NCBI GenBank assembly: GCA_965219445.1
Contig: CBDCNQ010000002.1
Location: forward strand, 160,001 to 224,000
Origin: Longimicrobiales bacterium
GTDB lineage: Bacteria; Gemmatimonadota; Gemmatimonadetes; Longimicrobiales; Gaopeijiaceae
DNA: 64,000 nt
Reading direction: 5' to 3'
Below the pieces are notes generated by a model. That model ran no database searches, had not been told where the DNA came from, and saw only the letters and a list, made by a program, of their open reading frames with translations. The position numbers were made by a program, and so were the translations under genes. This document shows, piece by piece, positions 17,027 through 48,412 of the stretch. The number at the start of each line of letters is the position of its first letter. The first letter of the stretch is position 1.

Positions 17027-17392
17027 GCCTGGTAAGAAGGGAACACCGAAACCTTATCGCAAACGGGCCTCCCTGGGCCAGGCTTTGCAAGCCAGAGGTT
17101 GCCGGGTCGCATCTCTGGGCCGGTTCGTGTGTCGGTTGGGCCGGTTCTTGTGTCGATTCAAAGCGGCAGATGTGAGCATCGGCTCGCGGCAAGAGTAGCA
17201 AATCGTGCGCCCTGCCAAGGGTTTGTGTGGTTTCTTGCCGTAAAACGCACAACTTGAATCCGATACCGTCCAATGATTTCCGGGTAGGTGCATAACATCC
17301 AGTATTTACAACAGGTTACGTAGTTTCTTTCTTGTCTCGTTCTGCCAGCAGTGCCCTTTGCGATCCCGTTCCATCCCAGTTATGATTGGGGG

Positions 17393-18613
17393 ATGGATAA
17401 TGTGATTCGATCTCCCGTCAAGCGCCGCCTAGGCAAGCCCAAGGGCCGCCATCCCCACAAGCGGCTCTCGACCGCCTTCGTGCGCTCGGCACCGCCCGGC
17501 AGGCACTGCGATGGCAACGGTCTCTACCTTTACGTCCAGAAGACCGGAACCCGGAGTTGGATTCAGCGGCTCGTGATCCGGGGCCGCAAGCGCGAGCTCG
17601 GACTCGGCAACGCCCAACTGGTCTTGCTCGCCGAGGCGCGGGAGCAGGCGCTGGCCAACCGCAAGCTTGCCCGCGCGGGCGGCGATCCGCTGGCCGAGAA
17701 GCGGCGTTCGGCGGGCATTCCCACCTTCGCCGAGGCCGCTAAGCGCGTCATCGAGCAGAAGAGCGCCGGATGGCGCAACGCGGCGGTGCCGAGGAACTGG
17801 TATCGCAGCTTCGAGATTCACGTCTTCCCAAGGATCGGGAGGGTGCCGGTCTCCGAGATGACGAGCGCCGACGTGCTCGAGATCCTCACACCCATCTGGC
17901 ACGCGAACCCGCCGACGGCCCGGATCGTTCGCCACCGCATCCGCGCCGTGCTGGAATGGGCCATCGCCATGGACTGGAGAACGGACAACCCGTGCGACCG
18001 GCTCCTGCCGGTGCTCGGCTCCCAGCAACATGTCGTCAGACACCGGAAGGCCCTGCCTCACCGCGAGGTGGGGGCGGCCATCGAGAAGGTCCGGGCGGCG
18101 AAGGCGGGCAAGGTGGACGCGCTGGCGTTCGAGTTCATGGTGCTCACGGCGGCGCGGGGCGTCGAGGTCCGCGGGGCGGTATGGAGCGAGATCGACCGGG
18201 AGGAGCGCGTCTGGACGGTCCCCGCGAGCCGGATGAAGAGCCTGCGCGCGCACCGTGTGCCGCTGTGCGGCCGCGCGCTGGAGATTCTCGACGCGGCGCG
18301 GAAGCTGGGCGGCGGCGGGAGTCCGATCGTGTTCGTCGGCAAGCGCGGCAGAGAGGTGGGCGGCGAGCAGATGGGCCGGCTGCTCAGGAAGCACGGGATC
18401 GCGGCGGTGCCGCATGGGTTCAGGTCGTCGTTCAGGGACTGGGCCGCCGAAGAGACGGACCACCCCCGCGAAGTCGTCGAGGCGGCCCTGGCCCATGTAG
18501 TCCGGAACCCGGTCGAGGCCGCCTACATGCGCTCCGACCTGTTCGAGCGCCGGCGTCGGCTCATGGACGATTGGGCTGCCTACCTGAGTAGGGAGCTTAG
18601 GGCAGGTCCCTGA
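17393..18613 (+). CDS. P4/IntA-like tyrosine integrase
   Basis: Arm domain DGNGLYL...RELGLG; TAAR, HGFRSSFRDW, LAH, AAY catalytic set. Confidence 0.93.
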   Translation: MDNVIRSPVKRRLGKPKGRHPHKRLSTAFVRSAPPGRHCDGNGLYLYVQKTGTRSWIQRLVIRGRKRELGLGNAQLVLLAEAREQALANRKLARAGGDPLAEKRRSAGIPTFAEAAKRVIEQKSAGWRNAAVPRNWYRSFEIHVFPRIGRVPVSEMTSADVLEILTPIWHANPPTARIVRHRIRAVLEWAIAMDWRTDNPCDRLLPVLGSQQHVVRHRKALPHREVGAAIEKVRAAKAGKVDALAFEFMVLTAARGVEVRGAVWSEIDREERVWTVPASRMKSLRAHRVPLCGRALEILDAARKLGGGGSPIVFVGKRGREVGGEQMGRLLRKHGIAAVPHGFRSSFRDWAAEETDHPREVVEAALAHVVRNPVEAAYMRSDLFERRRRLMDDWAAYLSRELRAGP

Positions 18614-18823: not shown

Positions 18824-20071
18824 CTAGGGCCCACCCCGTGCGTAAGAGACGACCATCCCGCCCTGGTGTAGACGATAGTGTTTTGGGAATCCCTCCTCGA
18901 AGGGGTTGGGGAGCCAGTCGATTTCGGGGTCTGCCGAAAGGGCGTCGCGCACCCTCAGGATCCGCCATCGCCACGTGTCACCGCGACGCCTGGCAATGCG
19001 AGTCGCCGCTTCGATTTCGCTAATCCCGAGGTCGAAGGACGTTTCTTCCCCTTTCGTTGCCTTCACCTCGACGTGCCACCTGATGCCGTAGTGGTTGAAC
19101 CGGAAATCGAAGCCGTGCCCGTCGCTTATCTCGTCCTTTTCGCCGTCTACGAGCGGGAGAACCTTCAGCCGTGACTCCGAAACCCATGCGCTCGGCCGCA
19201 CCGCTCGGCCCCCGAACTCCTTACGTAGATATCGGTAGGCGTGCATTTCCCCGACAATGCCAACCACTTCGGCCTCCTCCGGGGACAGACGCCGATGCCC
19301 GCTCCTGCCTTTCTTCTCCCCGCCGCCTCCAGAGCCGCCACGGCGCGCAGGCGGGCCAAGCGGCGTGAACTCGTCCTCGGCTGCCCGTGGCCCGCCGGGG
19401 TACTCCAGCGCGACGGTGTGCTGCCGAAGCAATTCCGTGTAATCGATCGTCTCGGTCTCGAAGGACTCGCCCGCGATCTCCACCTTTCTCCGCTTCCGCG
19501 CCGCCTCCCTCTCCTGCTCCGCTCGATCCCGTCGCCTCTCTTCGATTGCTTCCTCGTCGAGTCCCAGCCGGTCCCTGATCCCTTGTGGATCCGAAGGCTC
19601 GCCGCAGGCCGCGGCGAACCGCTCGTCGCCCAGGGCGGCCAATGCGAGACGCCAGAGGTCCGCATCGGACCACAGGCAAAGGTACGCCTCCGCCCCGAGT
19701 TCGGGAGCCGTCGGCCGATCGGGCACGGCGGATTCCGGGAGGTGAACCTCAAGCCAGGTTCGGTACAGGTCGTGCACCTGCAAGAGCACCCTGTTGAACT
19801 GGTCGCCATTGAGGCGGGCCGTGTCGTACGGGTCCGGGTCGATGCCGATCCCGCTTTCCTCCAGGGCAACCCGGAGCTGAGGAGCCGACGTCGCACCCGG
19901 CAGCGCTTCGAGGTTCCCCGCGTCCACGATCTCCCGGTAGCTCTCGCGGAGGGCGTCGACCACGGCCGCGAACGGGACTTCCTACCACCGGTTCGACCAG
20001 TTGTCAGGCGCCGTGAACGCGCGCGTCGCGCCTTCGATCTTCCGGAACAGCAGCGGCTCGCCGCAATCGAT
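18824..20071 (-). pseudogene. C-terminal part of a large DUF3883 (NOV-C, PD-(D/E)XK-like) protein truncated by IS3
   Basis: GEMHAY, GHGFDF, VEVKAT..FDLGISE; in-frame TAG upstream of 19963; frame runs up to the IS3 end. Confidence 0.7.
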
Positions 20072-22341: not shown

Positions 22342-23020
22342 ATGTGGGTCCGTGTGATACTTTTTGGGACAAACGGCGGGACACAGAAACGAGGGCGGAT
22401 CGGATGGGCCGGGTCTGCCGCGGGGATGCCGGACATCACCATAACCTGGAACGGACTTGACTCACAGCTCATCCCGCCACGGCCGCCGCGCCCCACTCCA
22501 CGCGTGGAGTGCGTAGAAGGCTGCGTCGTCCAGCAAGGGCGGCGAGCTGGAACTCAGGCTCGTGCTGGACGAGCCTCTGATCCCCGGTTTACCCAAACTG
22601 CTCCGACCCAGATTCGACCCCCCGGCCATCTTCAGAGAGGTGACGGGGCGCACGCAGAGAGATGACTGGCGGGAGTGCGGAATAGGCCAGACCGACCGTG
22701 CCGAGTGCCTCTGGCGTGTCAAGCAGACCTCCGGCCCGGGGTCACTACTCGGCGGATCGTCGTACTCGTTCCTCTGGAAAGCACCGAGAGATCCAGGCTC
22801 GCACAAAATCAAAATCGGGTACGAGTACAAGGCCTGGGGTAGCTTCAAGGAATGGGGCTACAGAGATACCGCCTTCGAGGGCGTCGACGTGACGGTCACC
22901 GTGCCACCACCTCGGGCGGACAGAGGCCCGGTGACGACGCCGCTGGTGTGTGCCCCTCTGATCCCACCGGACACCGGATGGCCCTGCTCCGTGAAGATCA
23001 ACGCAGAGGACGAGAAGGGA
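22342..23020 (+). pseudogene. Frameshifted fragment of a beta-rich surface protein
   Basis: Two overlapping frames with Ig/PKD-like character (WKAP..PG..KI.IGY); fused to an unrelated fragment. Confidence 0.3.
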
Positions 23021-23370
23021 CGACCCTCATCAAGCTGCACCGAGGCCGTCCCAAGATCTCGTACCTGTCCTATCCCGATTTCGACGAAGTGGCTCACCCA
23101 ACACTTGCGTTCTCCGTAGTTGTCCGGCTGGACACCATGGTGGCGACATTCCATGACTTCTCCAGGCGAGGCAACCCTCCGATCCTCCACAGGAAAGAGG
23201 CTTTCGTACCGGCAGACTATCCCTGTCGTGAGCGCTTCGCTCGATTGACGCGGCAGGAGGAAAAGCGTGGCCTACTCAATCGGGGAGAGATCGGTACGCT
23301 GCGCGGGTGGCATGAGCTCCTCGAGGCAGAGGGCTTGAGGGTGGCCGGGCATGTCCTGCGGCGGCAGTAA
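23020..23370 (+). pseudogene. C-terminal fragment of DNA phosphorothioation-associated putative methyltransferase
   Basis: LIKLH..PKISYLSYPDFD..AHPTL, NPPILHRKE.FV..DYP...FARLT.QEE. Confidence 0.75.
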
Positions 23371-23608: not shown

Positions 23609-23842
23609 GTGATCGAATCCGCTATCACGTCGAAGGGGCAAACGACATTGCCCAAGCCCGTACGGGAAGCGCTCGGCATACGGCCTGGGGACCGAGTGCG
23701 TTACGTAATTCTGGACCATGAGGTTCGAATCATCCCGGTGCGGCCCGTTCGTCGCCTGTATGGCGCATTCCAGTATGACGGTCCGCCTGTGACGCTGCAG
23801 GACATGGAGCGCGCCGTCACCGAGGGAGCGGTCGGGGAGTGA
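23609..23842 (+). CDS. AbrB/MazE-like antitoxin
   Basis: ITSKGQTTLPK.VREALGI.PGD. Confidence 0.9.
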   Translation: MIESAITSKGQTTLPKPVREALGIRPGDRVRYVILDHEVRIIPVRPVRRLYGAFQYDGPPVTLQDMERAVTEGAVGE

Positions 23843-24246
23843 TTGCGCTCGATACGAATGTCCTGGTCCGATATCTGGTGGCCGATGACGCCAAGCAGGC
23901 GGAAGCAGCACGGGTGCTGCTGGCGGGTTTGACAGCTGAGCGGTGCGGCTTTCTGTGCCGCGAGGTGACGGTAGAGCTTGTTTGGGTGCTGGAACGGGCC
24001 TATCGATTCTCCCGTGACCGGATTGCGACCGTGCTCGAGCAACTGGTGGCGACTGAAGAGCTCGAGCTTGAGGCTGTCGATGATATTGCACGCGCAGCCC
24101 GTGGTTACCGTCGAGGCGGAGCTGACTTCTCCGACCTGATGATTGCCGCCGCCGCAAGAAGGTCCGGAGCGCATCCTCTCTACACTTTCGACCGACGAGC
24201 AGCCCAACTTAAGGGAGCAGAACTGGTGAAGGAGCCAAGCTCATGA
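23839..24246 (+). CDS. vapC: PIN-domain toxin
   Basis: MIALDTNVLVRY, E..WVL, DFSD..I, YTFD; overlaps the antitoxin stop. Confidence 0.9.
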   Translation: MIALDTNVLVRYLVADDAKQAEAARVLLAGLTAERCGFLCREVTVELVWVLERAYRFSRDRIATVLEQLVATEELELEAVDDIARAARGYRRGGADFSDLMIAAAARRSGAHPLYTFDRRAAQLKGAELVKEPSS

Positions 24247-24895
24247 GTACAGACTTGGAACACAGCACCGTTGGCACACCTAACCGTGAGGCCGATGATC
24301 GAATGTCAGTTTTATCCACCCTGGCTCATCAGGCTGTGACAGCAGTACCAAAGCTCGTGATTTCAGATCGATTGCGTAAGGCCGCCAAGTACGATCCCTC
24401 AAAGCAATACGAGTTTCGATATCGCGCGAAAGGTCATCGCGACCTTCCCCACGTTGTCAAGTTGTCTGGAGGACGCTCAAGCGGGATGCTCCTGTTCGCG
24501 CTCCTTGAGAACAAGATCCTCGACCCAGACCGAGGAGACGTAATCGTTTTCAACAACACCTCGGCGGAGCACCCGGATACGTACCGCTTCACGCGAGACT
24601 GCAAGGTCGCTTCTAGCCGTTACGGAGTACCGTTTTTCTGGGTTGAATTCCAGACCTATGAGGACGCCCGCAACGGCGAGTGGACCCGCATTCCATCCTA
24701 TCGCCTCGTCAATGACGAGATCAGATCTCCGGACAATCCAGATGGATTTCATTGGCGCGGCGAGGTCTTTGAGGAGTTGCTATCCTGGTCAGGATATATC
24801 CCGAATCAGTTCAGTCGCATCTGCACCAGAAATATGAAACTAGAGGCAACGCGCCTGTTCCTGAAAGACTGGTTGGCATGCAAGGAGTCCATCCC
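24243..24895 (+). pseudogene. PAPS-reductase-like PP-loop protein, 5' part (IS256-interrupted)
   Basis: VVKLSGGRSSG PP-loop, FNNTSAEHPDTY, RICT..MK; ends at TSD TCCATCCC. Confidence 0.8.
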
Positions 24896-24924
24896 GAGGT
24901 TGGGTCAATAGGTGTGTAAATGTT

Positions 24925-26169
24925 TCAGGCGGCGTTTTTCCGCTGTTGGGTTGAGACGGGCTTTCCGTCTTCGAACTTTCTTCCTTCAAATACGTCCTTG
25001 AGGAGGTGAGGAGCGTCGAGCCTTCTGAAGCGCTTCTCCGCCACCAAGAGCAGCTTCCAGATCAGCGCCGTAGCGCTCTCGACCCGCTTGAAGCGCTTCG
25101 CCGCCGTTGTCCTGAGCCGTACTGCGGCAAAGGGGCTCTCGACCACGTTCGTCGTGCGTAGATGCTTCCAGTGGTCCTCGGGGAAGTCGTAGAACGCCAC
25201 CATCCGCTCCCAGTCGTCCTCGAGTACATCCACCGCCTTCGGATACCACGGTCTGTAGCGCCTGGCGAACGCCTCACGGGCCTTCAGCGCCTCGGACCGC
25301 CTCGGTGCGTAGACCACGGTCCTGAGAAGGTCCTTCGCCTCGCTCTGCTCCCGCTGAGGCAGCCGGTCCAGCACGTTCCTCATCTTGTGGTTCCAGCACC
25401 GTTGCTCGCCCGCCTCAGGCCATACCTGCCGTACTGCGCCCCAGATCGCCGCGTTGCCGTCCGCCATCAAAAGCCGGGGCGCCTCGATGCCGCGTGCCTT
25501 CAGATCCCGCAACACCTCGGACCAGGACTCGACCGACTCTCGGTAGCCCGATCTCAGGGCCAACACCTCCTTCGTACCATCTCGCATCGCACCGAGAACC
25601 ACCAGCAGCGCTGCCTTGTCCCGCTCGAGCCCCGCCTTCACGTAGATCCCGTCCGCCCAGACGTAGACGACCTCACGGTCGGCCAGCGAGCGCTTCGACC
25701 ATTCCTCGAATTTCCTTGTCCATCCCGCCCGCAGCCGCCAAATCGAAGACTTCGACAACGGGGCCCCCTCGCCCAGCAGGCCCCGCATCGCCAGCTCGAA
25801 GTCTCCCTCCGCCAGCCCGTGCAGATACAGCTCCGGAAGCAGAGCACCCACCTCCTTCGTCCGTCGTGCGAACAACGGCAACACCCGACTCTCGAACCGC
25901 TCCTCAATGCCTCGAACCCGGGGCCGTCGGAGCATGATCGTGCCCGAGCTCATCGCCAGCCGCCGAGCCTTGCCGTAGCCGTTGCGGTAGCCTGGCGCCG
26001 GGTCTACGACCGTCTTCCGCTCCGACTTCTCCCGGCCGAGCAACTCCGTCACTTCCTCCTCCAGAATCCGCTGGACCATCTCCTGGGCCTTCTCACGAAC
26101 CAGCGCTTCCAAGCACTCCCACGTCGGCGTGCTGGACTCACTCTCGGGTCCCACCATATTCTTCCTCAC
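24925..26169 (-). CDS. IS256 transposase
   Basis: YRNGY, LYLHG, WADGIY, ADG, QRCWNHK, RTTNVVES. Confidence 0.95.
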   Translation of the reverse strand: MRKNMVGPESESSTPTWECLEALVREKAQEMVQRILEEEVTELLGREKSERKTVVDPAPGYRNGYGKARRLAMSSGTIMLRRPRVRGIEERFESRVLPLFARRTKEVGALLPELYLHGLAEGDFELAMRGLLGEGAPLSKSSIWRLRAGWTRKFEEWSKRSLADREVVYVWADGIYVKAGLERDKAALLVVLGAMRDGTKEVLALRSGYRESVESWSEVLRDLKARGIEAPRLLMADGNAAIWGAVRQVWPEAGEQRCWNHKMRNVLDRLPQREQSEAKDLLRTVVYAPRRSEALKAREAFARRYRPWYPKAVDVLEDDWERMVAFYDFPEDHWKHLRTTNVVESPFAAVRLRTTAAKRFKRVESATALIWKLLLVAEKRFRRLDAPHLLKDVFEGRKFEDGKPVSTQQRKNAA

Positions 26170-26439
26170 GAGGCATCGTTCCTTTCCCCCGGGCGCTCAC
26201 CCGGGATTCGCTGGTTAACTTCTTACTACCTAGCGGAAAGGGGTCGCCTCTTTTTTTACACACCCTTCTATGGGGCTGGCGGTCAAGACGCACCTTCCCC
26301 ACGCGCCGTCGGCTCATTTTTTGACCGTCGGCGTCCGCATGGTTTGGATTGCCCGGTCGACGACTCAGGGTGGGGAGGGGTGCGCTCGCAGGGTCCGCAT
26401 CGCAGTCCGGAAGACGTTCACAGCCGTCGCGTTCTCCGC

Positions 26440-26600
26440 TCTGGAGCGGGAACCATCCTTCTATCTGGGACTCTGTGGCCCATCGCTTCGTTCGGCTCTT
26501 CCAGGGGTGCATAGCCTTTGAGTGGGGGCTTGGGCTCTCTGCCCCGGCCCACGGTGTGTATGGATGCTGTCCCCTGTAACCGGTTCGCTTCCGTTTCGTC
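26440..26600 (-). ncRNA. Putative bridge/seek RNA of the IS110 element (boundaries approximate)
   Basis: Stem-flanked internal loop carrying UACACACC and UCAAAGG (match the target) plus AUAGAAGG (matches the donor junction). Confidence 0.75.
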
Positions 26601-26653
26601 GGACCCCATGTTGTGACCGCTTTCGACCCCACGCTCGCCGATCCCAGGCCGGT

Positions 26654-27709
26654 TTACTCCGTCGCTTCCAGTCTCTTGGGGTCGTACGCTTCGCCCGTGC
26701 GCCACACCGCTAGCACGATCGAGGCGAGCTGACGCGCGATCGTCAGCTTCGCCAGATTCGGCTTCGTGCCCCCCTCCAGGAGTCGCTCGTAGTGGCGGTA
26801 CAAGGGTTCGTTTTCGGCCCGACCGATCACCGTCGTCGCTGCGCCCTTGAACACACGCTTCAGCGTGTGGTTGAAGTTCCGATTCAGCCCCCGCGTCTGC
26901 TGTACCGGTTCCCTTACCCACCGCCCACCCGGACCCCGCACCCAGTCCGACGAGCTCCGCATCACGACGCCCAGTCCGCAGTACGCCCAGAACCTGCTCC
27001 GGCTCTGGAACCGGTACGGCGTCACCACCACCGGCAGGAGCTCCGCCGTCCGGATCGGACCCAGACCCGGGCACGTCTTCAGCACATGCCACTCTCGATG
27101 CTTGCGTGCTTCCGCCAGCAACGCCTTCTCGGCCTTCGCCCTCAATGCCACGAGTGCGTCGTGCTCCTCGTACAGCAACCCGGCCGTCGTCCTGCTCGCT
27201 TCCGGCAGCTTGGCCAACCACTCCTCCCGGTCGCGCTTTAAGTAGACCGAGCGCCCCGCGCCGTAGGCCACTCCTCTCGAGCGCAGCACGCTCTTGAGCC
27301 GGTTCTTCACCCGCACCGTGTCGCCGACCAAGAAGTCGTAGCTCTTCGCCCGTTCCCCCAGCCGCCTGAACTGGCCCCGGTTCTTGTAGACCGTCGTCTC
27401 CAGTGATCCGATCCGCAGCTTCTCCGCCAGGGCAAACGCGTCCAGCTTGTCGGTCTTCGGGCCCCGGCTCTTGCCGACCCCCGCCACCGTCAGCTCCTCC
27501 ACGTGCGGCTTCAGCACCTCGTACAGCCACCCCGACAGCGTCCCTTCTTCCAGGCATAAGTGCCGGTTCCTCGGAATCCCTCGCAGCACCTCGATCAGCG
27601 CCCGCGCGTTCGTCTCCACCACCTGCGAGCCCAAGCGCTTGCCGCTGGGGCCTACAATCCCCAGCGTGCAGCTCGACGCGTGTGCGTCGAGTCCGATATA
27701 CCTCTCCAT
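26654..27709 (-). CDS. IS110 DEDD recombinase/transposase
   Basis: YIGLD, LEEG, KTDKLDA, PGLGP, YCGL..RSSS; GAGGAGG RBS. Confidence 0.93.
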   Translation of the reverse strand: MERYIGLDAHASSCTLGIVGPSGKRLGSQVVETNARALIEVLRGIPRNRHLCLEEGTLSGWLYEVLKPHVEELTVAGVGKSRGPKTDKLDAFALAEKLRIGSLETTVYKNRGQFRRLGERAKSYDFLVGDTVRVKNRLKSVLRSRGVAYGAGRSVYLKRDREEWLAKLPEASRTTAGLLYEEHDALVALRAKAEKALLAEARKHREWHVLKTCPGLGPIRTAELLPVVVTPYRFQSRSRFWAYCGLGVVMRSSSDWVRGPGGRWVREPVQQTRGLNRNFNHTLKRVFKGAATTVIGRAENEPLYRHYERLLEGGTKPNLAKLTIARQLASIVLAVWRTGEAYDPKRLEATE

Positions 27710-27884
27710 GGGCATCCTCCTCTTGGGTAGGACGGGTTGGGTTGCTTGCTTGCGCGAATAATGATGAACGCGCACCCGCTCCCGGAGGAGAACGCCTCTT
27801 CGTCTTCGGGCTGCTTCGCTGCTGATCGGTACCGGTAGCGGTCGCCATGCCCCTATGATGCCTTTGATCCTAGCTCTCCATCCC

Positions 27885-28665
27885 CCGGCTAGGCCACTAC
27901 GGGAGTCGTTCTCGGGTCGATATCGCCATGATGTATCAGCGACATCGTCGCAACCGAGGCGGGGTCCCCAAAGAGGTCTTTGCCGAAAAGAGGAAATACG
28001 CACTGACACGTCCTTACGTCCGCTCGGAACAGCGATACCGAGATTTCTCCTCGGTTTGGCGCCCCTTCCATAATGCTGCCCTCGAGGGCAGAGCCTACGG
28101 GGACCAGGCTTGGTTCGGTGACGGAGGCGCCGAGTACCTAGCTTTCGTCGGACTTCGGGCAGACGAGCAACTTCGTGTTAAGCGTGTCGAGGCACGAAAC
28201 GCCGGTCCGGGAGCGTCCGGCTATGAGGGCGAGCATGTATACATGCCCTTAGCCGACATGGCTGTAGCCCGGGACGATGTGAACACGTTCTGGGACCAAC
28301 AAGATTGGGACCTCTCGTTGCCCAAGGCCGGAAGCCTCTCCAACTGCGTCTTCTGCTTTCTTAAGGGTGCCGCCAATCTAAGAGCTGTCCACAACAAAAT
28401 GGAAGAACAGAAGCAACAAGATAATCCCGGATTTGGTTCACTAGTGGGTACACCTTCCGATGTGTCATGGTGGATACGCATGGAACAAACCTATGGCCGA
28501 GACCTAGACGCCGAGGAGAGAGAAATCACAGGGACACCAGAGCACAATTTTCTTGGTTTCTTTGGAGCATCGAGTACCTTTTCCTATGAGTTTCTAGCTC
28601 AGAGTGACGAGTGCGAGATCACGAAATATTCGAGCACACTCCTACCGTGCGACTGTACGGAATGA
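27885..28665 (+). pseudogene. PAPS-reductase-like PP-loop protein, 3' part
   Basis: In frame with the 5' part after IS removal; VGLRADE..R, SNCVFCFLKG, terminal PCDCTE. Confidence 0.8.
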
Positions 28666-28693
28666 CCATCACATACACCCGCTGAGCCGCTAG

Positions 28694-29875
28694 ATGCGAT
28701 TGGTCAGCGACCGGGTAGCCTATCTGGATAACCAGGCGACCACGCCGGTAGACCCCCGAGTCCGCCACGCGATGTTCCCTTTCTTCGATAGTTGTTTTGG
28801 GAATCCGCATTCGAGGGACCATGTGTACGGATGGAACGCCACAGACGCTGTAACTGTGGCACGAGCTCAGGTAGCACAGTTCATCGGTGCAGACGATCAC
28901 GAGATCCTCTTCACGTCGGGAGCTACCGAGTCATGTAACCTAGCGCTACGTGGCATCGCGAGGGCCTCTGACGGTAAACGGAATAAGCTGATCACCGTGG
29001 CGACGGAACATCCTGCCGTTTTGGAAACAGCACTGGACCTGCGACGTCTCGGGTTCGAGGTGGTTGTCCTACCGGTGTCCTCCGAAGGTCTCCTCGATCC
29101 TTCTGACCTCGAGCGGACACTCGACAACCGAACCCTGCTCGTGTCTATCATGGCGGCAAACAACGAGATTGGTGTCCTCCAGGACCTTACTGACATCGCC
29201 CACTTATGCCATGCCAAAGGTGTGCTGTTTCATACCGACGCAACGCAAGCTGCTGGGCGGATTCGTATCGACGTAGGCACATGGGACGTTGACCTCCTTA
29301 GCCTGTCTGCCCACAAGTTCTACGGTCCAAAGGGCGTAGGAGCTCTATTCGTTCGATCCGGTGTATCGCTTGAACCAATGCTGACAGGTGGTGGCCAAGA
29401 GCGTGGGTTACGACCAGGAACAGTGTCACCAGCCCTCACGGTTGGCTTCGGCGAAGCATGCCGTATAGCTGGAGAGGAATGGAGAGACGATACCCGGCGA
29501 ATGTCTGAACTCACGGTACGCCTTAGGCAGGGCCTGCATGCCTTGTGTCCGAACATCCGTATCTTCGGCCATCTGCAACAACGGCTGCCGGGTTCCCTCA
29601 TGGTGGGTTTTCCGGGAATTCCGGCGAGCGAAGTCATTTCTATCGTGTCGGATCGCATAGCGGTGTCTACTGGTTCCGCGTGTGCTTCCGGTACCGCCGA
29701 GGCCTCGAAAGTCCTTCTCGCATTAGGTGTGGCACCGGATATCGCCATGACGGGTGTGAGAGTGAGCTTGGGACGCTTCACGAAGGAATGCGATATCGAG
29801 ACTGCACTCGCTGCCCTGTCTGACATTGCTCCGATTGCCGCCAGGAACCGACCCTACGATGACAAAGTTTCTTGA
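28694..29875 (+). CDS. Cysteine desulfurase (IscS/DndA-like)
   Basis: YLDNQATT, FTSGATES, ANNEIG, HTDATQ, SAHKFYGPKG, STGSACAS. Confidence 0.95.
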   Translation: MRLVSDRVAYLDNQATTPVDPRVRHAMFPFFDSCFGNPHSRDHVYGWNATDAVTVARAQVAQFIGADDHEILFTSGATESCNLALRGIARASDGKRNKLITVATEHPAVLETALDLRRLGFEVVVLPVSSEGLLDPSDLERTLDNRTLLVSIMAANNEIGVLQDLTDIAHLCHAKGVLFHTDATQAAGRIRIDVGTWDVDLLSLSAHKFYGPKGVGALFVRSGVSLEPMLTGGGQERGLRPGTVSPALTVGFGEACRIAGEEWRDDTRRMSELTVRLRQGLHALCPNIRIFGHLQQRLPGSLMVGFPGIPASEVISIVSDRIAVSTGSACASGTAEASKVLLALGVAPDIAMTGVRVSLGRFTKECDIETALAALSDIAPIAARNRPYDDKVS

Positions 29876-30413
29876 CCTTCGATTTGCACCAGGATCTCTG
29901 ACCGGTTTCACTCCGCGCGGTATCGCAGGGTTCGGAGACCTGCGGCCGGCAGCGGTGGTCCGAGAGCTCATTCAGAATTCCCTTGATGCCACCGCCGAAG
30001 CTGGGGAAACATCCGCGATCGTCCGCTTCCGGCTTACTCAAGTGAGAACGGACGATATCCCAGGAATTCGGAGCTACAAGAAAGCTTTTTTTGAAGCAGT
30101 GCAAAGTAATAAACGGAGCAATAATGGCACACTCCCGAGTCAAGCAGCGAGAGTCGTCCAGGTCATCAGGGAGGCACTGGATCGGGACAAGCAAGACGTT
30201 CTCTCTGTACTCGATAACGGTATTGGCTTGAACGAAGCTCGGTTGACTGCTCTGCTGAGTGATGGAATGAGTGTCAAGAGTGACGCGGCTACAGGCACGT
30301 TCGGCAACGGACACTCCGTCGTCATCCCGGCGTCCGACTTCCGCTACGTGCTTTATGGAGGAGTTACCAACTCGTACAAGAAACTTGTGACCTCATCACC
30401 TAAGGCATCGTAA
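29859..30413 (+). pseudogene. GHKL (HATPase_c-like) ATPase protein, apparently 3'-truncated
   Basis: VRELIQNSLDA, DNGIGL, GTFGNG boxes; ends soon after the last box. Confidence 0.7.
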
Positions 30414-31148
30414 TTCTCTTTCGCACGATACAGACGCGTCCAAGTATCAACCAGCTGTTCGGGCACATCATGGATCGTCATGATCAGCGGGGTATCGGAA
30501 GCAACTCGTCCCAAGCCAACACGGTCAACACGACGGGCACTACGACAACCACAGCAACCCCAACCGCCGCTGCCGGCGGGGAGTCGCCTTGTGGACGCTC
30601 ATCGGAACCGCGCATGGTCCTAGGCGCCTCGTCTCGGTGAGTAGGTACTCAGGATCGTGGCACGATACCGAACAGCGTTGCGACTCCACAGAGCTCTGTG
30701 GTCATGGCTACCTGAAAGGTGAACGTGGACCCCCGCTTTTTCAAGCTTCGCGATCAGATAGGTCCAAGAAATCTAGGGCCCCCGATTTCTCTGGACGGTG
30801 GATTTGGCAAGGAGCCGGGGTCCCAAGAAAGAGGGGGTTGCAAATGCTTTCAAAGGCTGGGGAGTCCGAAGTGAACGAAGGTCGCACACGACACCGCCAT
30901 CTATCGGGCTTGCAGGAAGGAGCACCGCCGCCTGCTCGAGCGATCCGGCGAGTGCGCCTCGACGGCGAGCTCAAAAGCACCGTCGCGCGCCGGAGCGAGT
31001 CCGCCCGTGCGCGAGACGGCTGGCGGGCTGCGGAGGCCGGGCGGCACCACGCTGCCCGGCAACTGGAGCTACTCATGGACGCGGAGGGCGGCGTTCTCTT
31101 CCCCGATGCAGCAGATCGAGTACATCGACTCCGACGGGCGGACCGGCG

Positions 31149-31290
31149 GTGACGAGCCAATCGGCGTCGATATCGAGCGATTGTTCTGCTGTCTGTGTGG
31201 TCACCGCAACAACGCCGTCACGGCTGCCGCCCTTTGAAAGGGCCTGCTCTAGCGCATCATCGAGCAGACGGCGATCCTCTGGCGCAAAGG
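31149..31290 (-). pseudogene. cas3: Cas3 helicase-C fragment
   Basis: FAPEDRRLLD...VVAVTTQTAEQSLDIDADWLVT. Confidence 0.7.
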
Positions 31291-31539
31291 TGCAAAACGT
31301 CCGTGGTGGGGTGCGACCACGCCTCTGCACGGCGGTTCGAGATGCCCGCCAGTCATTCCCGCCATTTGATGGCGTTTTCTCGCCCTTTAAGCACGGCAGC
31401 ATCAGGCATGGTAGGACGGCAAGAACGGCAGATCATGCAGTCCTAGTTGAACTTAGACGATTTCTTGCCGGGGTTCACGCTCACTGGGATGTGCCTGATG
31501 TGCACTCGCCGATCAGCACCGACGCTCGCCGATCCGCGT

Positions 31540-32430
31540 TCAAAATCGGCCTCCAGGGAGCCGTCTCGAGCGCCATGTCGCGAAGCCGTGGATCATCGTT
31601 CCGGGACTCGAGGATCGGTGGAGGTCGTTCAACTCGACGATCCGCTTGAGGCAGGCCTGCAGGTCGCCATACTCTTTGAGCACCCGGTCATCCTTGGCGC
31701 GGATGGCCCGCTCGATTCGGGCGATCTCGCGGCGGGCCGCACTGTCGGGTTCCGGAGCGGCGGAGGGGCCGGATGCTGTAGATGTGTTGGTCCAGTTCTC
31801 GAGGATCGTCTCCGCCCGGCCCCGCTCGTCCGTTGTCCGGACGACGACCACGACTTCGATCCCGCGGCCGCGATCCCAAAGCGCCTCCCAGAGTTCGCGG
31901 TGCGCGGCACCCCAGGAGCGGAGCGCCGTCGGGGTCTCGTGGCCCGGATCGACGTAGACGAAGACGGCGCGCTCGGCGTCCAGCGCGACCGGGAGCCGGA
32001 GCGGGAAGTAGCGCCGGGCGTTCCCGGCCGCTCCCCGATAGACTCGCCGGGGCAGGAGCGGGCGCTCGATGCCGAGCGCCTCGAAGGCGGCCACCTTCTC
32101 CAGCTCGGTCCGGAGCCAAGGCAGGCGGGAATGATCAAGCACATAGTCGAGCGAGAGCAGGCGCCGCATCAGCACTTCCGTGGAGGTGATCCGGCGGCGG
32201 CGGCGGTTCCCGGCGCCGAGCGCCCGGTAGATCCGGCGCGCGTGGATTCGGCACACTCGACCGATGCCGTCGATGCCGGGCGGATCCTCTTCGACGGCCA
32301 CGCCCTGCGCGACGAGGGCGCGGACGGCGCGGCGCACCTTTTCGTGGTGGCAACCCAGAAAGCTCGTCCACTGAGCCCGAGTGAACACGCCGCCATGGAG
32401 ACAGGCCAGGGCGATCCATTCGGCACGGCG
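31540..32430 (-). CDS. Mobile-element-associated hypothetical protein (5' end uncertain)
   Basis: Long ORF; a close partial paralogue lies at about 60560-61045. Confidence 0.6.
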   Translation of the reverse strand, partial: RRAEWIALACLHGGVFTRAQWTSFLGCHHEKVRRAVRALVAQGVAVEEDPPGIDGIGRVCRIHARRIYRALGAGNRRRRRITSTEVLMRRLLSLDYVLDHSRLPWLRTELEKVAAFEALGIERPLLPRRVYRGAAGNARRYFPLRLPVALDAERAVFVYVDPGHETPTALRSWGAAHRELWEALWDRGRGIEVVVVVRTTDERGRAETILENWTNTSTASGPSAAPEPDSAARREIARIERAIRAKDDRVLKEYGDLQACLKRIVELNDLHRSSSPGTMIHGFATWRSRRLPGGRF

Positions 32431-32520
32431 CCAGCGCTCTTCGCGCGTGAAGTCACTAAAGGGCCACGACGCTCGCCCGACAAGTCACAACTCACTCACA
32501 AAATAGCGCGTAGCTTTCCG

Positions 32521-32554
32521 GATAGCTCTCGATAATTGTAGTTATCGAGAGTAA
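32521..32554. repeat. lox-like recombination site A
   Basis: GATAG CTCTCGATAA TTGTAG TTATCGAGAG TAA. Confidence 0.85.
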
Positions 32555-32601
32555 CCCGCGGCAAGGATTGTGACCAGAGAGGCCCCCGAGTTCTTCGGGG
32601 C

Positions 32602-33588
32602 TCATCTGCGTTTCTGAAGCCGTGCCAGCTGTGCGGCGCCGTTGCGCTTGGCCAGCAGCCGCTCGCCGTAGCGCTGCACCATCTGGGCGTTCTTCCAGCG
32701 CCCGGCCTGCATGATCGCCGGGATCCCGATCCCTTTGGCGATCATGTCCTGAGCCGCGCCCACGCGGGGGCTGTGCCCGGAGAGCCGCCGCACGATCTGC
32801 TCCGGCAGCCCGGCCCGTTCGGCCATCGCCTTGTAGATGCGCGGCACCTGGCTCTCATGCAGTTGGCCGCCCAGCGTGCCGTCCTTGCGCATCGAACGGA
32901 AGAGCGGCCCGCCACTGATCCCGCTCGCGCCCAGCCACTCCGAGAGCAGCCTCACGCTGTCTCGGTGCAGGTAGAGCATCGCGCCGCCGCCCTCCGGATC
33001 GGTCTTCGCGCGGCGCACGAGGAGCGAGGCCGAGCCGCCCCTTTCTATCGTCACATCAACGACTTGCAGCGCGACCAGCTCGGAGCGCCGGAGCATGGCG
33101 TCGTAGGCCACGGCCAGGATCGCGCGGTTCCTGACGTCGATCACCCGGTCGCCCGCGGCCTCCATCAGGCGCCGGCGGAGCGCCCAGGTCAGACCCTGCA
33201 CCTGCCTCTGCCGGCACCCCCTCTGCCGGTGCATCCGCTTCAGCGCCCGCCGCACGGTCACGTGCTCGAGCGGGCTCCGCTCCCCGGCCGCCTTGTGCAC
33301 GGTGGCGACGCTCGAGACGTAGCGCCGCACGGTGGCCGGCGCTCGCTCGCTCGCCATCGCCTCGACGTAGGCCACCACCGTGGCCGCGCGCGCGGGCAGC
33401 GGAGAGAGCCCCCGCTCGGCGCACCACCCCGCGAACCGTTCCAGGTCCGCTCGCACCGCTCGCACGGTATGGCCGCTCAGGGCGCCGCGGGCGTCCTCCA
33501 GGTAGGCGGTCAGGCACTCGCCGGTTTGTGACTTCTGAGTGGCCGGGTCGGGACGGTCGGACACACCTTCTGGGGCCGAAATACGCAT
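32602..33588 (-). CDS. Cre-like tyrosine recombinase
   Basis: Core-binding N-domain without arm domain; MLRRSEL, AKTD, HSPRVG, AGRWK, RY. Confidence 0.9.
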   Translation of the reverse strand: MRISAPEGVSDRPDPATQKSQTGECLTAYLEDARGALSGHTVRAVRADLERFAGWCAERGLSPLPARAATVVAYVEAMASERAPATVRRYVSSVATVHKAAGERSPLEHVTVRRALKRMHRQRGCRQRQVQGLTWALRRRLMEAAGDRVIDVRNRAILAVAYDAMLRRSELVALQVVDVTIERGGSASLLVRRAKTDPEGGGAMLYLHRDSVRLLSEWLGASGISGGPLFRSMRKDGTLGGQLHESQVPRIYKAMAERAGLPEQIVRRLSGHSPRVGAAQDMIAKGIGIPAIMQAGRWKNAQMVQRYGERLLAKRNGAAQLARLQKRR

Positions 33589-33624
33589 AAGTGCCCTCTA
33601 CACAATGACATACAGCAAAAAAGT

Positions 33625-33658
33625 TTACTCTCGATAACTACAATTATCGAGAGCTATC
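33625..33658. repeat. lox-like recombination site B (exact reverse complement of A)
   Basis: TTA CTCTCGATAA CTACAA TTATCGAGAG CTATC. Confidence 0.85.
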
Positions 33659-44161: not shown

Positions 44162-44334
44162 TAATTCGGTCGTCCCTGCCGATCCGGTACCATCCCTCCT
44201 AGTTCCCTAAAAGCATTGATAAAGCTATACTTAAGGGGAGTTTTTGTCCGTGAGTGTCCACTGACGTAGCGTGCTGTACACCGTATTGTGGACCCCAAAG
44301 TGGACCCCACAGGGACCGAAAAGGGGGGCTGACA

Positions 44335-45543
44335 GTGCCGAGGCTGAAGCTAAGCGCGCGCGGGGTCATGGCATTAGAGACGGATCGGGCACGCGAAGAA
44401 TTCTGGGACACGGTCACGCCCGGGCTGGTCCTCAGGGTAAGTGGCGAGAGCGGCGGAAAGACGTGGAGCGTCAGGTACCGGCTGAACGGTGCACGTCGCC
44501 GTCAGACGCTGGGAAGCTACCCGACGCTCAGTCTGGCGGAGGCGCGAGCGGCTGCGCGCGAGGTGCAACGGCAAGCCGACGCGGGAGAGGATCCTGCAAA
44601 GGAGCGCGCGGACCGCAAAGCGGGCCGTTACACGTTCAAGGAGCTTTCCGACGAAGTCTTGGAGGCACGGGCGATGCGGACCCGGGAAGCAACCCAGCGG
44701 GAGAGAAAGCGGATCCTCGGCAAGGAGCTCGCGCCCACTTGGGGCCATCGGCCGGCTGCGGACATCACTCGCCGGGAGGTTGTCCACCTGGTCGAGGAGA
44801 TTGCCAAGAGAGGGGCCCCGATCGTCGCGAATCGGACGCTGAGCCTCATCCGGCTGATCTTCAACGATGGGCTACGCCGAGGCTTTCCGACTCTGGAGGC
44901 CAATCCCGCACACCTTGTCGAGCTCCCGGCCGAGGAAGTGGGGAGGGATCGGTACCTGACTCGAGAAGAGGTCAAGCTCATCTGGCAGACGACGGGGGAC
45001 GAGACTCGGGCAACACGTGGTGCCTTCCGCCTCGCGCTACTGACGGGTCAGCGGATCGGCTCTGTGTTAGCGATGCGATGGGATGGAATCACAGGCGACC
45101 TATGGACGATTCCGCCGGAACACTTCAAGGGAAGGCGGACCCATGTGGTTCCGCTCTCGAGCGAGGCGTATGAAGGCATCGAGGAGCTGAAGGAGACCGC
45201 CTACTCCGATACATGGGTCTTTCCGTCGCGGGCAAGAGCGAAGAGACCCCATTTGACGAGCATGGGCCGCTCGCTCTCCAGGGTCCGCAATAAGACATCG
45301 ATCCCGAGCTGGACCGTCCATGACTTCCGCACGACCTTCCGGACCCACGCCGTCCGGGCGAGAGAGGACGGCGGTTTCGCGATCCCAGGCCATGTAGCGG
45401 ACGCTGTACTCGGCCACAAGGAAGCGACTCTTGGATTCGAGAGGTACACAGGGGACCGGGACCGCTACCTCTTACATGAGAAGCGAGACGCTCTGCGAAA
45501 GTGGGGTGCGTTCATCATGGACGCGGTGGAGGCGGAGAGGTGA
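44335..45543 (+). CDS. Tyrosine integrase with arm-binding domain
   Basis: WD..PGL.LRV, LGSYP.LSLAEAR, TGQR, HDFR, LGH, RY; GTGGACCCCA tandem repeat upstream. Confidence 0.92.
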   Translation: MPRLKLSARGVMALETDRAREEFWDTVTPGLVLRVSGESGGKTWSVRYRLNGARRRQTLGSYPTLSLAEARAAAREVQRQADAGEDPAKERADRKAGRYTFKELSDEVLEARAMRTREATQRERKRILGKELAPTWGHRPAADITRREVVHLVEEIAKRGAPIVANRTLSLIRLIFNDGLRRGFPTLEANPAHLVELPAEEVGRDRYLTREEVKLIWQTTGDETRATRGAFRLALLTGQRIGSVLAMRWDGITGDLWTIPPEHFKGRRTHVVPLSSEAYEGIEELKETAYSDTWVFPSRARAKRPHLTSMGRSLSRVRNKTSIPSWTVHDFRTTFRTHAVRAREDGGFAIPGHVADAVLGHKEATLGFERYTGDRDRYLLHEKRDALRKWGAFIMDAVEAER

Positions 45544-47227: not shown

Positions 47228-48412
47228 ATGCGTAAACGACCCCTTACCGCTGCCTTCGTGGCGCGGGTGAAGACGCCGGGCCGCTACGGCGACGGTGGAC
47301 GAGGCGGGCTCGGGCTGTACCTCCGCGTCCACCGTATGAAGTCGGGGCGGGTCTCCAAGTCGTGGGGCCAACGCGTTCGAGTGGGGGGCAAGCCCACCAA
47401 TCTCGGACTCGGCTCGTACCCGGTCGTGACGCTCAAGGAGGTGAGGGAGAAGGCGCTTGAGAACAGGCGGGCCGTCCATTGGGGCCATGACCCGAGAGAC
47501 GCGGGGGTTCCCACCTTCGAGGCGGCCGTCAAGAAGGTGATCGAGATTCACTCGCCGACTTGGAAGAACCCTTCCCGCATCTCGGGGCAGTGGCGGCAGA
47601 CGTTGCGGGACTACGCCCATCCGCGCATTGGCCGGAAGAGGGTGAGCGAGGTCGCGACGGCCGACGTGCTAGCCATCCTCAAGCCCATCTGGTCGCGCAA
47701 GCCCGCGACCGCGAGGGCCGTGCGTCAAAGGATCGGCGCGGTGATGAAGTGGGCCGTCGCGAAGGGCTACCGGCCGGACAACCCGGCGGGAGACGCCATC
47801 GCCGCGGCGCTCCCGCGCAACGGGAACACGACCCGGCATTTCAAGGCGCTCCCGCACGGCGAGGTGTCCGTGGCCCTGGTCAAGGTCCGCAACTCGGGGG
47901 CCTACGCCGGTGGCAAGCTGGCGCTCGAGTTCATGGTTCTGACCGCGACACGCTCGAGCGAGGTCCGGGGCGCGACGTGGGACGAGTTCGAGCACGATGT
48001 CTGGACCATTCCCGCCAGCCGCATGAAGGCGAAGCGCGAGCACCGGGTTCCCCTGTCGAGGCGGGCGTTGGAGATCCTTGAGGAAGCCCGGGAGCGCCAC
48101 GACGACGGCGGGCTCGTGTTCCGGGGTGCCAGGGGAGGAAGGATCGATGCCTCGATGTTTGGCGCCTTGCTCCGGCGTCTCGGCTTCGACTGTACGCCGC
48201 ACGGGATGCGGTCCTCGTTCCGCGACTGGTGCTCGGAAACGGGCGTGGCGCGCGAGGTGGCCGAAGCGGCGCTGGCCCACGCTGTCAAGAGCAAGGTTGA
48301 GGCCGCCTACGCCCGCTCAGACCTGTTGGAGCGGAGGCGCAAGGTCATGGAGGCTTGGGCCGACTACGTCGCCGGCGAGCATCCCGAATCGGAGGCCGAA
48401 CCGGGCCGCTGA
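47228..48412 (+). CDS. P4/IntA-like tyrosine integrase
   Basis: PGRYGDG..GLYL, TATR, HGMRSSFRDW, LAH, AAY. Confidence 0.93.
   Translation: MRKRPLTAAFVARVKTPGRYGDGGRGGLGLYLRVHRMKSGRVSKSWGQRVRVGGKPTNLGLGSYPVVTLKEVREKALENRRAVHWGHDPRDAGVPTFEAAVKKVIEIHSPTWKNPSRISGQWRQTLRDYAHPRIGRKRVSEVATADVLAILKPIWSRKPATARAVRQRIGAVMKWAVAKGYRPDNPAGDAIAAALPRNGNTTRHFKALPHGEVSVALVKVRNSGAYAGGKLALEFMVLTATRSSEVRGATWDEFEHDVWTIPASRMKAKREHRVPLSRRALEILEEARERHDDGGLVFRGARGGRIDASMFGALLRRLGFDCTPHGMRSSFRDWCSETGVAREVAEAALAHAVKSKVEAAYARSDLLERRRKVMEAWADYVAGEHPESEAEPGR

What the first reader, a model, noticed from the sequence alone, without database searches (positions are those of the whole stretch)
23609..30413. Candidate non-canonical sulfur-modification system: PP-loop/PAPS-reductase-like + cysteine desulfurase + GHKL ATPase, headed by vapBC
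Seen: joining 24243-24895 to 27885-28665 gives an unbroken 1434-nt ORF (477 aa; junction CKESIPRLGHYG) with SGGRSS, RICT, GLRADE, CVFC and terminal CDC. It is coupled to vapC (ATGA overlap) and followed after 28 bp by an IscS-like gene overlapping a GHKL ATPase gene; the block is visibly more AT-rich than the core genes. Established: desulfurase + PP-loop Fe-S enzyme is the chemistry of DndA/DndC, SspA/SspD and tRNA thiolases. No DndB/D/E or SspB/C is recognisable here, and the Cys pattern looks more like phage-type PAPS-reductase proteins. Inference: a distinct nucleic-acid thiolation/defence module, inactivated in this copy.
Basis: partly seen in the sequence, partly recalled or inferred. 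Interest (0 to 1): 0.8.

Follow-up and report, generated by a model that had tools for sequence, protein, structure and literature searches.

The report
Dead copy of undescribed sulfur-marking module
This is a broken copy of an unstudied bacterial gene set in which an ATP-driven three-protein unit is paired with a sulfur-transfer-type enzyme, while related units are often paired with a DNA methylase instead, so it probably puts a sulfur mark on DNA in a way not yet described.

Summary
Observation confirmed. A 2,981-bp IS256+IS110 composite (8-bp target duplication) splits a 477-aa PAPS-reductase-type PP-loop gene; an IS-free allele exists. The GHKL gene breaks at about 30370 and two partner genes were not found in this genome, so this copy is dead. 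vapBC is not conserved.

Intact relatives form a five-gene operon in 65 of 80 loci: PP enzyme, desulfurase, GHKL ATPase (~660 aa), and two unknown proteins. These three resemble the untested candidate PDC-M33 (DUF6339). PP-linked GHKLs fall on one branch; the desulfurase is optional.

A C5 cytosine methylase lies near 9 of 14 PP-less GHKL loci (6 within 720 bp) and in 0 of 119 PP-bearing loci. That swap mirrors BREX-1 versus BREX-4, but may be a single event. 51 of 68 complete loci carry Pbe-, DndB-, GmrSD- or TIGR04096-like neighbours.

The enzyme is no DndC, SspD or CysH orthologue; it is closest to phage PAPS-reductase-like proteins and keeps SspD's cysteine layout. Best reading: a DNA phosphorothioation-like writer on a GHKL motor (0.5; any DNA sulfur mark 0.65). 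No sulfur was shown. Not found in nine literature searches. This scan reported the system before on other genomes.

The parts
22852..23370 (+). C-terminal remnant of a TIGR04096 'phosphorothioation-associated putative methyltransferase'; the family is an accessory gene in 16 of 80 related loci
   Evidence: E 2.6e-30, profile 360-476 of 478; below cut-off
23609..23842 (+). vapB-like AbrB/MazE antitoxin; not conserved with the module
23839..24246 (+). vapC-like PIN toxin; not conserved with the module
   Evidence: a contig of run X1 carries vapBC and then leaves the window at 24375
24243..24895 (+). 5' half of the PAPS-reductase-type PP-loop gene (SGGRSS; invariant C194 in RxCT)
24888..24895 (.). 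target-site duplication, left copy (TCCATCCC)
24896..27876 (-). 2,981-bp composite element: IS256 transposase 24925-26169 and IS110 transposase ~26654-27709; 16 full copies in the genome
27877..27884 (.). target-site duplication, right copy
27885..28665 (+). 3' half of the PP-loop gene (GLRADE; invariant C372, C375, C473, C475)
28694..29875 (+). intact NifS/IscS-type cysteine desulfurase (PADLOC SspA 466 and DndA 464 bits; below the NCBIfam IscS, NifS and DndA cut-offs); SAHK and GSACAS motifs present
29862..30413 (+). truncated GHKL ATPase (PDC-M33A-like); homology ends at about 30370; full length in relatives is ~660 aa; the two downstream core genes are missing
18824..19963 (-). C-terminal remnant similar to Tiamat TmtA (context: decayed defence island)
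   Evidence: E 1.5e-47, profile 1463-1779 of 1782

Best explanation
The intact module is a DNA-modification unit of a restriction-modification-like defence system. A conserved trio (GHKL ATPase, protein B, DUF6339-like protein C) finds or engages DNA sites and recruits a writer. In one branch the writer is this five-cysteine PAPS-reductase-type enzyme. It would hold an Fe-S cluster, use ATP at its PP-loop to activate the DNA backbone and exchange in sulfur from the linked, or a housekeeping, desulfurase, giving a phosphorothioate mark as DndC, SspD and BrxP do. Many sister trios are paired with a C5 cytosine methylase instead. Interchangeable neighbours (PbeA/PbeC-like, GmrSD-like, DndB-like) would read, regulate or restrict. 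SHOWN: gene content, conservation, branch structure, writer exclusivity, fold class, invariant residues, inactivation here. INFERRED: DNA as substrate, backbone as site, Fe-S binding, physical contact with the trio, defence function.
For: Operon: of 80 PP-anchored loci, GHKL 74, desulfurase 72, B 71, C 68, all four 65. Reverse: PP in 28 of 33 GHKL-anchored metagenome loci, with gene order reshuffled to GHKL-B-C-PP in distant ones. PP distances track GHKL, B and C (Spearman 0.82) more than the desulfurase's do (0.63-0.69), 58 loci, descriptive only. Swap: C5 methylase in 9 of 14 PP-less loci (0-718 bp from the trio in 6) and in 0 of 119 PP+GHKL loci; the profile finds the window's own methylase as control. 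Among the 6 PP-less loci with a Pfam DUF6339 hit, 5 have it within 720 bp. Two plasmid trios without PP sit among methylase and restriction genes. Context: 51 of 68 trio-complete loci carry PbeA (23), GmrSD (21), TIGR04096 (16), PbeC (12) or DndB-like (8) genes. Enzyme: model pLDDT 82, best matches PAPS/APS reductases, Z 10.1, rmsd 3.6 over 192. SGG, RxCT, CxxC and terminal CxC are invariant in 41 diverse relatives, the layout of SspD. Precedent: BREX-4 swaps a methylase for a PAPS-reductase protein and makes phosphorothioate (PMC12914056, passages); DndDE/CxC cores can recruit cytosine methylases, and DndA is present in only 32% of taxa (PMC10853773, passages).
Against: No sulfur or DNA activity was measured. 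The enzyme is much closer to phage PAPS-reductase-like proteins, for which I found no tested function (hhalign E 2.7e-46), than to SspD (9.8e-19) or DndC (2.9e-6). Dnd, Ssp and BREX-4 use a P-loop ATPase (PMC12914056, PMC12707154 passages); a GHKL has no precedent in the papers read. PP-linked GHKLs are one branch, so the swap may be one evolutionary event, not many independent observations. 5 of 14 PP-less loci (L176, L180-183) have neither writer, and for these and L156, L159, L178 PADLOC did not recognise the partner genes. The desulfurase is in only 6 of 18 PP-linked places of the even sample. In Pseudomonadota 6 of 8 GHKL places lack the PP enzyme. The GmrSD neighbour is BrxU-like, not shown to be SspE-like. 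17 of 68 complete loci show none of the listed accessories within the fetched stretch. No control was run for how often such accessories flank unrelated defence genes.
Confidence: 0.5

Rival explanations
1. Same architecture, but the enzyme thiolates a DNA base (for example cytosine), not the backbone: a sulfur counterpart of the 5-methylcytosine writer it replaces, using the adenylate-then-Fe-S chemistry of tRNA thiolases.
For: The alternative partner is specifically a cytosine methylase. tRNA thiolases NcsA (Z 9.0) and TtuA (Z 8.1) score close to the PAPS reductases (Z 10.1). The closest relatives are phage proteins; one lies two genes from a DNA methyltransferase.
Against: Fold and profile ranks put the PAPS-reductase branch (SspD, BrxP, DndC) first. 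Common neighbours belong to families named for phosphorothioation. I know of no thio-base in bacterial chromosomal DNA (recalled).
Confidence: 0.15
2. The PP enzyme modifies a protein, nucleotide or RNA (adenylation or thiolation of a trio subunit or a phage target), and the desulfurase only builds its Fe-S cluster. The trio is a stand-alone defence unit and the methylase link is an island effect.
For: Trios occur with neither writer (5 of 14). The desulfurase is optional. The fold list includes Cap9 (Z 6.9), a defence PP-loop enzyme that modifies a protein (recalled). PDC systems were defined as cassettes embedded in RM, BREX and DISARM loci (10.1101/2024.01.29.577857, passages), which alone enriches nearby methylases.
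Against: An island effect does not explain 0 methylases in 119 PP-bearing loci against gaps of 0-75 bp on the same strand in 4 PP-less loci, nor the Pbe, DndB and TIGR04096 neighbours.
Confidence: 0.2
3. The enzyme is a phage-derived, sulfur-independent protein captured once beside the trio (for example a DNA-adenylating or anti-restriction factor), and the desulfurase joined later in a sub-branch for unrelated reasons.
For: Phage-type proteins are the nearest relatives. The desulfurase is patchy on the tree (4 changes) and tracks the other genes less well.
Against: The desulfurase sits right after the PP gene in two gene orders (PP-CSD-GHKL-B-C and GHKL-B-C-PP-CSD; L050, L104, L116). Five cysteines are invariant.
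Confidence: 0.12
4. An ordinary sulfate-assimilation CysH or housekeeping tRNA thiolase beside an iscS gene.
For: CysH and APS reductases are the top fold matches.
Against: 13-16% identity; no Pfam or NCBIfam hit for P0001; found in 1 of 40 related genomes; no conserved cys or isc neighbours among the families clustered.
Confidence: 0.03

Closest known systems
SspABCD-SspE phosphorothioation
   Same: Desulfurase + PAPS-reductase-type enzyme with RxCT / CxxC / terminal cysteine pair + ATPase + accessory proteins; a DUF262 nuclease nearby in 21 of 80 loci.
   Different: 38 bits on the SspD profile against ~450 for true SspD; 477 aa with large inserts against ~280; GHKL in place of the AAA+ SspC; no SspB match; the nuclease is BrxU-like by sequence.
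BREX type 4 (BrxP, BrxC) versus methylase-bearing BREX types
   Same: One scaffold uses either a methylase or a PAPS-reductase-type sulfur writer; desulfurase optional (56% of taxa in PMC12839542, passages).
   Different: No BrxC, PglZ, BrxL or DUF4007 among the conserved families; BrxP similarity limited to the PP-loop region (E 0.003).
DndABCDE and the CxC/Pbe core (PMC10853773)
   Same: ATPase core proposed to recruit either phosphorothioation enzymes or cytosine methylases; PbeA/PbeC-like and DndB-like genes are frequent neighbours here.
   Different: No DndC; DndC's ECP and PSC cysteines are absent and DndC lacks the terminal pair; no ABC ATPase or DndE in the core.
PADLOC candidate PDC-M33 (A, B, C = DUF6339)
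   Same: GHKL, B and C hit PDC-M33A (E 1e-28 to 1e-36), M33B (1e-4 to 1e-9) and M33C/DUF6339 (weak), in that order.
   Different: Far lower scores than typical members (E ~1e-100); a separate branch tied to the PP enzyme. PDCs are untested, and M33 is not in the preprint's main text.
Phage/prophage PAPS-reductase-like proteins (PHROG 424)
   Same: Nearest sequence relatives: SGGR(T/S)S, RxCT, NCxxCF, WW, terminal CxC.
   Different: ~270 aa, ~29% identity, no GHKL or desulfurase annotated in the 4 phage regions read; no close viral member.
MORC/paraMORC GHKL ATPases of RM systems (PMC2292703)
   Same: GHKL ATPases linked to mostly cytosine methylases, proposed to loop DNA.
   Different: The passages searched name no PAPS or PP-loop partner; no SF2 helicase in this core; family assignment not tested.

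Membership tests
Dnd | DndC orthologue (TIGR03183 above cut-off; DndC cysteine motifs) | tested here: not met
   No NCBIfam hit for P0001 or in the genome; 8 of 41 relatives hit PADLOC DndC weakly, best E 9e-5; motifs differ
Dnd | DndD ABC ATPase and DndE in the core | tested here: not met
   Core ATPase is a GHKL; a PbeC/DndD-like gene is accessory in 13 of 80 loci
Ssp | SspD orthologue | tested here: not met
   38 bits against 278-454 for true SspD
Ssp | SspD-like cysteine layout (RxCT, CxxC, terminal pair) | tested here: met
   terminal CxC here, CxxC in SspD
Ssp | SspC AAA+ ATPase | tested here: not met
   No SspC hit among the conserved families; GHKL instead
Ssp | SspB-like winged-helix recognition subunit | tested here: inconclusive
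   No profile hit; protein C model gave no clear fold match, best Z 6.6; protein B not modelled
Phosphorothioation systems in general | PAPS-reductase-type PP-loop enzyme | tested here: met
   (40 of 41 relatives hit the SspD profile)
Phosphorothioation systems in general | Cysteine desulfurase linked or housekeeping | tested here: met
   72 of 80 close loci; 6 of 18 in the even sample
Phosphorothioation systems in general | Neighbouring P-loop NTPase (search criterion in PMC12914056) | tested here: not met
   Core ATPase is GHKL with intact N, D and G boxes
Phosphorothioation systems in general | Sulfur in the DNA backbone | not testable with these tools
   needs iodine cleavage and LC-MS
BREX type 4 | BrxP (PAPS + DUF4007), BrxC, PglZ, BrxL | tested here: not met
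   none among the conserved families
TdpABC | TdpC with TdpA and TdpB | not testable with these tools
   No Tdp hit in the scans run; the system is known to me only from a mention in PMC12914056 and from recall
PDC-M33 | Three genes A-B-C in order matching the PADLOC models | tested here: met
   Intact relatives, weak scores for B and C; the window keeps only part of A
CysH / APS reductase | Family profile match and sulfate-assimilation context | tested here: not met
   fold class only
GmrSD/BrxU (accessory gene) | DUF262 N-terminus with DGQQR plus HNH-like C-terminus | tested here: met
   specificity untested

The most novel reading that the evidence does not exclude
A further architecture of DNA sulfur modification: a GHKL-driven three-protein platform with exchangeable writers (5-methylcytosine or sulfur), whose sulfur writer belongs with the phage-type PAPS-reductase-like proteins. 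If the mark is on the backbone it is the first phosphorothioation system without a P-loop ATPase; if on a base, a new bacterial DNA mark. Either would also give a function to the phage PAPS-reductase-like genes.
Probability: 0.62. Interest if true: 0.82.

Novelty: new variant of a known kind. Interest (0 to 1): 0.62.

Why it matters
Surveys of phosphorothioation have required a P-loop ATPase beside the PAPS-reductase gene (PMC12914056), so a GHKL-based system would be missed. It would widen the known sulfur epigenome, here across uncultured bacteria of at least seven phyla. It would assign a role to PDC-M33/DUF6339 as a general DNA-modification platform. It also offers a clean test of how a writer is targeted, since sister trios take a methylase or a sulfur enzyme. 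The copy in this window is only a decayed witness; the value lies in the intact relatives.

Tried and rejected
vapBC as head of the system: rejected. B and C as paralogues: an artefact of overlapping reading frames in the first clustering. Missing genes elsewhere in the genome: not found. Sequence searches of solved structures with the PP, B and C profiles: nothing meaningful; the GHKL profile gave only weak Hsp90/MutL/MORC hits. ESM Atlas: B matched only unnamed clusters, C gave weak GAP1 leads, not pursued. Protein C model: no clear fold in two searches; SspB, DndG and BrxA were not listed, which does not exclude them. Foldseek on the PP model gave no E <= 0.001 in PDB. No close viral member; no full-length plasmid member. 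A Fisher test on the methylase split was computed and is not used, because the loci are kin. The maximum-likelihood tree did not finish; only FastTree is reported, with long-branch warnings among PP-less rows. tRNA attachment site: none in the window. A word search of earlier findings returned nothing, nor did the place search.
Full report
1. Observation. The insert, 24896-27876, encodes IS256 and IS110 transposases and has 16 full copies in the genome, 7 with 8-9 bp duplications. An intact protein, P0001, is 99% identical to the C-half, and a contig from run X11 joins the halves. The desulfurase is intact. The GHKL gene covers positions 5-180 of a 662-position profile and breaks at about 30370. 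Upstream lie a TIGR04096 methyltransferase remnant, a TmtA-like remnant and an integrase: a decayed defence island.

2. The intact unit. A scan of GTDB with the PP alignment matched 204 stretches, 183 true relatives, of which the best 80 were returned. All 80 titles are metagenome-assembled genomes, from Pseudomonadota, Acidobacteriota, Actinomycetota, Chloroflexota, Spirochaetota, Latescibacterota, Longimicrobiales and others. Clustering and profile counts (profiles built from these loci) gave GHKL 74, desulfurase 72, protein B 71, protein C 68 and all four in 65 of 80. Four of the 15 exceptions end at a contig edge. Three have a GmrSD-like gene in the desulfurase slot, and four divergent ones have none of the partners. 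GHKL, B and C resemble PDC-M33A, B and C/DUF6339. Of 68 trio-complete loci, 51 carry PbeA-, GmrSD-, TIGR04096-, PbeC- or DndB-like genes; these families were named from representative members. vapC was found in none. B and C were not found in the window's genome, and the PP gene was found in 1 of 40 relatives.

3. Reverse tests. Anchored on the GHKL, 28 of 33 metagenome loci (some near-duplicates) carry the PP gene and 17 the desulfurase; most of the five misses are short or end close to the trio. For a less biased view I searched two evenly drawn sets of 401 genomes with the PDC-M33A profile and fetched all 32 places other than the window and the seed locus. PP was present at 2 of 8 in Pseudomonadota and 16 of 24 in the window's own phylum; 6 of these 18 had the desulfurase. 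On a FastTree of 54 GHKLs that I picked from these sets, the 35 PP-linked and 3 undetermined rows form one side of a branch (support 99) against 16 PP-less rows.

4. The writer swap. A Pfam scan of 59 chosen neighbours of PP-less loci found C5 cytosine methylases at L155, L156, L160, L161, L162 and L174, 0-718 bp from the trio. A profile built from those six added L178 (1.8 kb; confirmed), L154 and L159 (5-7 kb): 9 of 14. It found none in 119 loci holding both PP and GHKL (95 of them at least 14 kb; duplicates included), while it did detect the window's own methylase. Adenine-methylase queries hit 2 of the PP-bearing loci, both over 4 kb from the GHKL gene. Lactococcus and Ligilactobacillus plasmid trios lack PP and sit among methylase and restriction genes. 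Limits: the split follows one branch; five PP-less loci have neither writer; several distant ones are not confirmed trios.

5. The enzyme. The model (pLDDT 82) matches PAPS/APS reductases best (Z 10.1, rmsd 3.6, 192 aligned), with tRNA thiolases and GMP synthetases within about one unit. In 41 diverse relatives the SGG loop and C194, C372, C375, C473 and C475 are invariant. Profile comparison ranks phage PAPS-reductase-like proteins first (4 sequences, E 2.7e-46), then SspD (8, 9.8e-19), then DndC (8, 2.9e-6); SspD shares the cysteine layout and DndC does not. The GHKL keeps its ATP-binding boxes. Protein C models confidently as all-helical with invariant Arg and Trp residues but has no clear fold match. 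The GmrSD neighbour has DGQQR and an HNH-like tail; its best solved relative is 7P9K, which I recall as BrxU.

6. Mechanism. Most likely the trio engages DNA with ATP and presents sites to a writer, and in this branch the writer activates the backbone and inserts sulfur (0.5). Base thiolation (0.15), a non-DNA target (0.2), a sulfur-independent phage-derived passenger (0.12) and housekeeping (0.03) are the rivals. Architecture and exclusivity are shown; the chemistry is inferred from DndC, SspD and BrxP.

7. Literature. Nine searches found no paper joining a GHKL ATPase to a PAPS-reductase enzyme; PDC-M33, DUF6339 and PF19866 gave 0 papers. Seen as passages: PMC12839542, PMC10853773 (abstract and passages; no GHKL or MORC), PMC12914056, bioRxiv 2024.01.29.577857, PMC2292703, PMC12707154. 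Others were seen as listings only. Subscription papers, including the TdpABC paper (recalled), are outside the library. The preprint's PDC tables are closed and the other supplements were not read; they could list this arrangement.

8. Earlier findings of this scan. Four notes on other genomes describe what appears to be the same system; they are leads, not support. One says the trio more often occurs without the sulfur genes and is marked as partly fallen. My sample agrees for Pseudomonadota (6 of 8 without) and not for the window's phylum (8 of 24 without). The methylase exchange is not mentioned in the lines shown to me.

9. Verdict. A real feature and a dead copy of a conserved module that I could not find described. 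It works like Ssp or BREX-4 in outline but is a member of neither. New variant of a known kind; interest 0.62.

Noticed in passing
window 24896-27876: The IS256+IS110 composite moves as one 2,981-bp unit (16 full copies). Several copies lack their own duplication but match another copy's flank, which suggests recombination between copies.
   Followed up: partly
window 32521-33658: Tyrosine recombinase gene (32602-33588) between perfect 34-bp inverted repeats; two more ~99% copies of 32433-33656 in the genome.
   Followed up: no
window 30876-31402: Cas3 C-terminal-like fragment (31073-31402, E 6e-10) overlapping a ~270-bp stretch repeated over ten times in the genome.
   Followed up: no
window 31540-32388: Multi-copy ORF of 282 aa with no Pfam, NCBIfam or PHROG hit, beside the recombinase.
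   Followed up: no
window 54672-56512: NgoMIV-like restriction enzyme and C5 methylase pair.
   Followed up: no
window 49619-50836: C-terminal part of a Upx-like defence protein; two unannotated ORFs at 51507-53818.
   Followed up: no
window 17351-18613, 44254-45543, 47228-48412: P4-type integrases; the first has many relatives in the genome, two of them 99% identical.
   Followed up: no
L176, L180-L183: A tight branch of GHKL three-gene arrays with neither PP enzyme nor methylase; SbcCD or GmrSD genes nearby.
   Followed up: partly
L043/L165, L021, L052, L170, L171: Tandem second modules, or extra B or C copies, after the operon; possibly added specificities.
   Followed up: no
L007:2555-9694 and 22 other loci: A ~660-aa protein with a sigma-70 region 4 usually precedes the PbeA/PbeC-like genes; a weak relative follows the methylase in L161.
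   Followed up: partly
L077, L175: The PP gene appears split or partly duplicated in these loci too.
   Followed up: no
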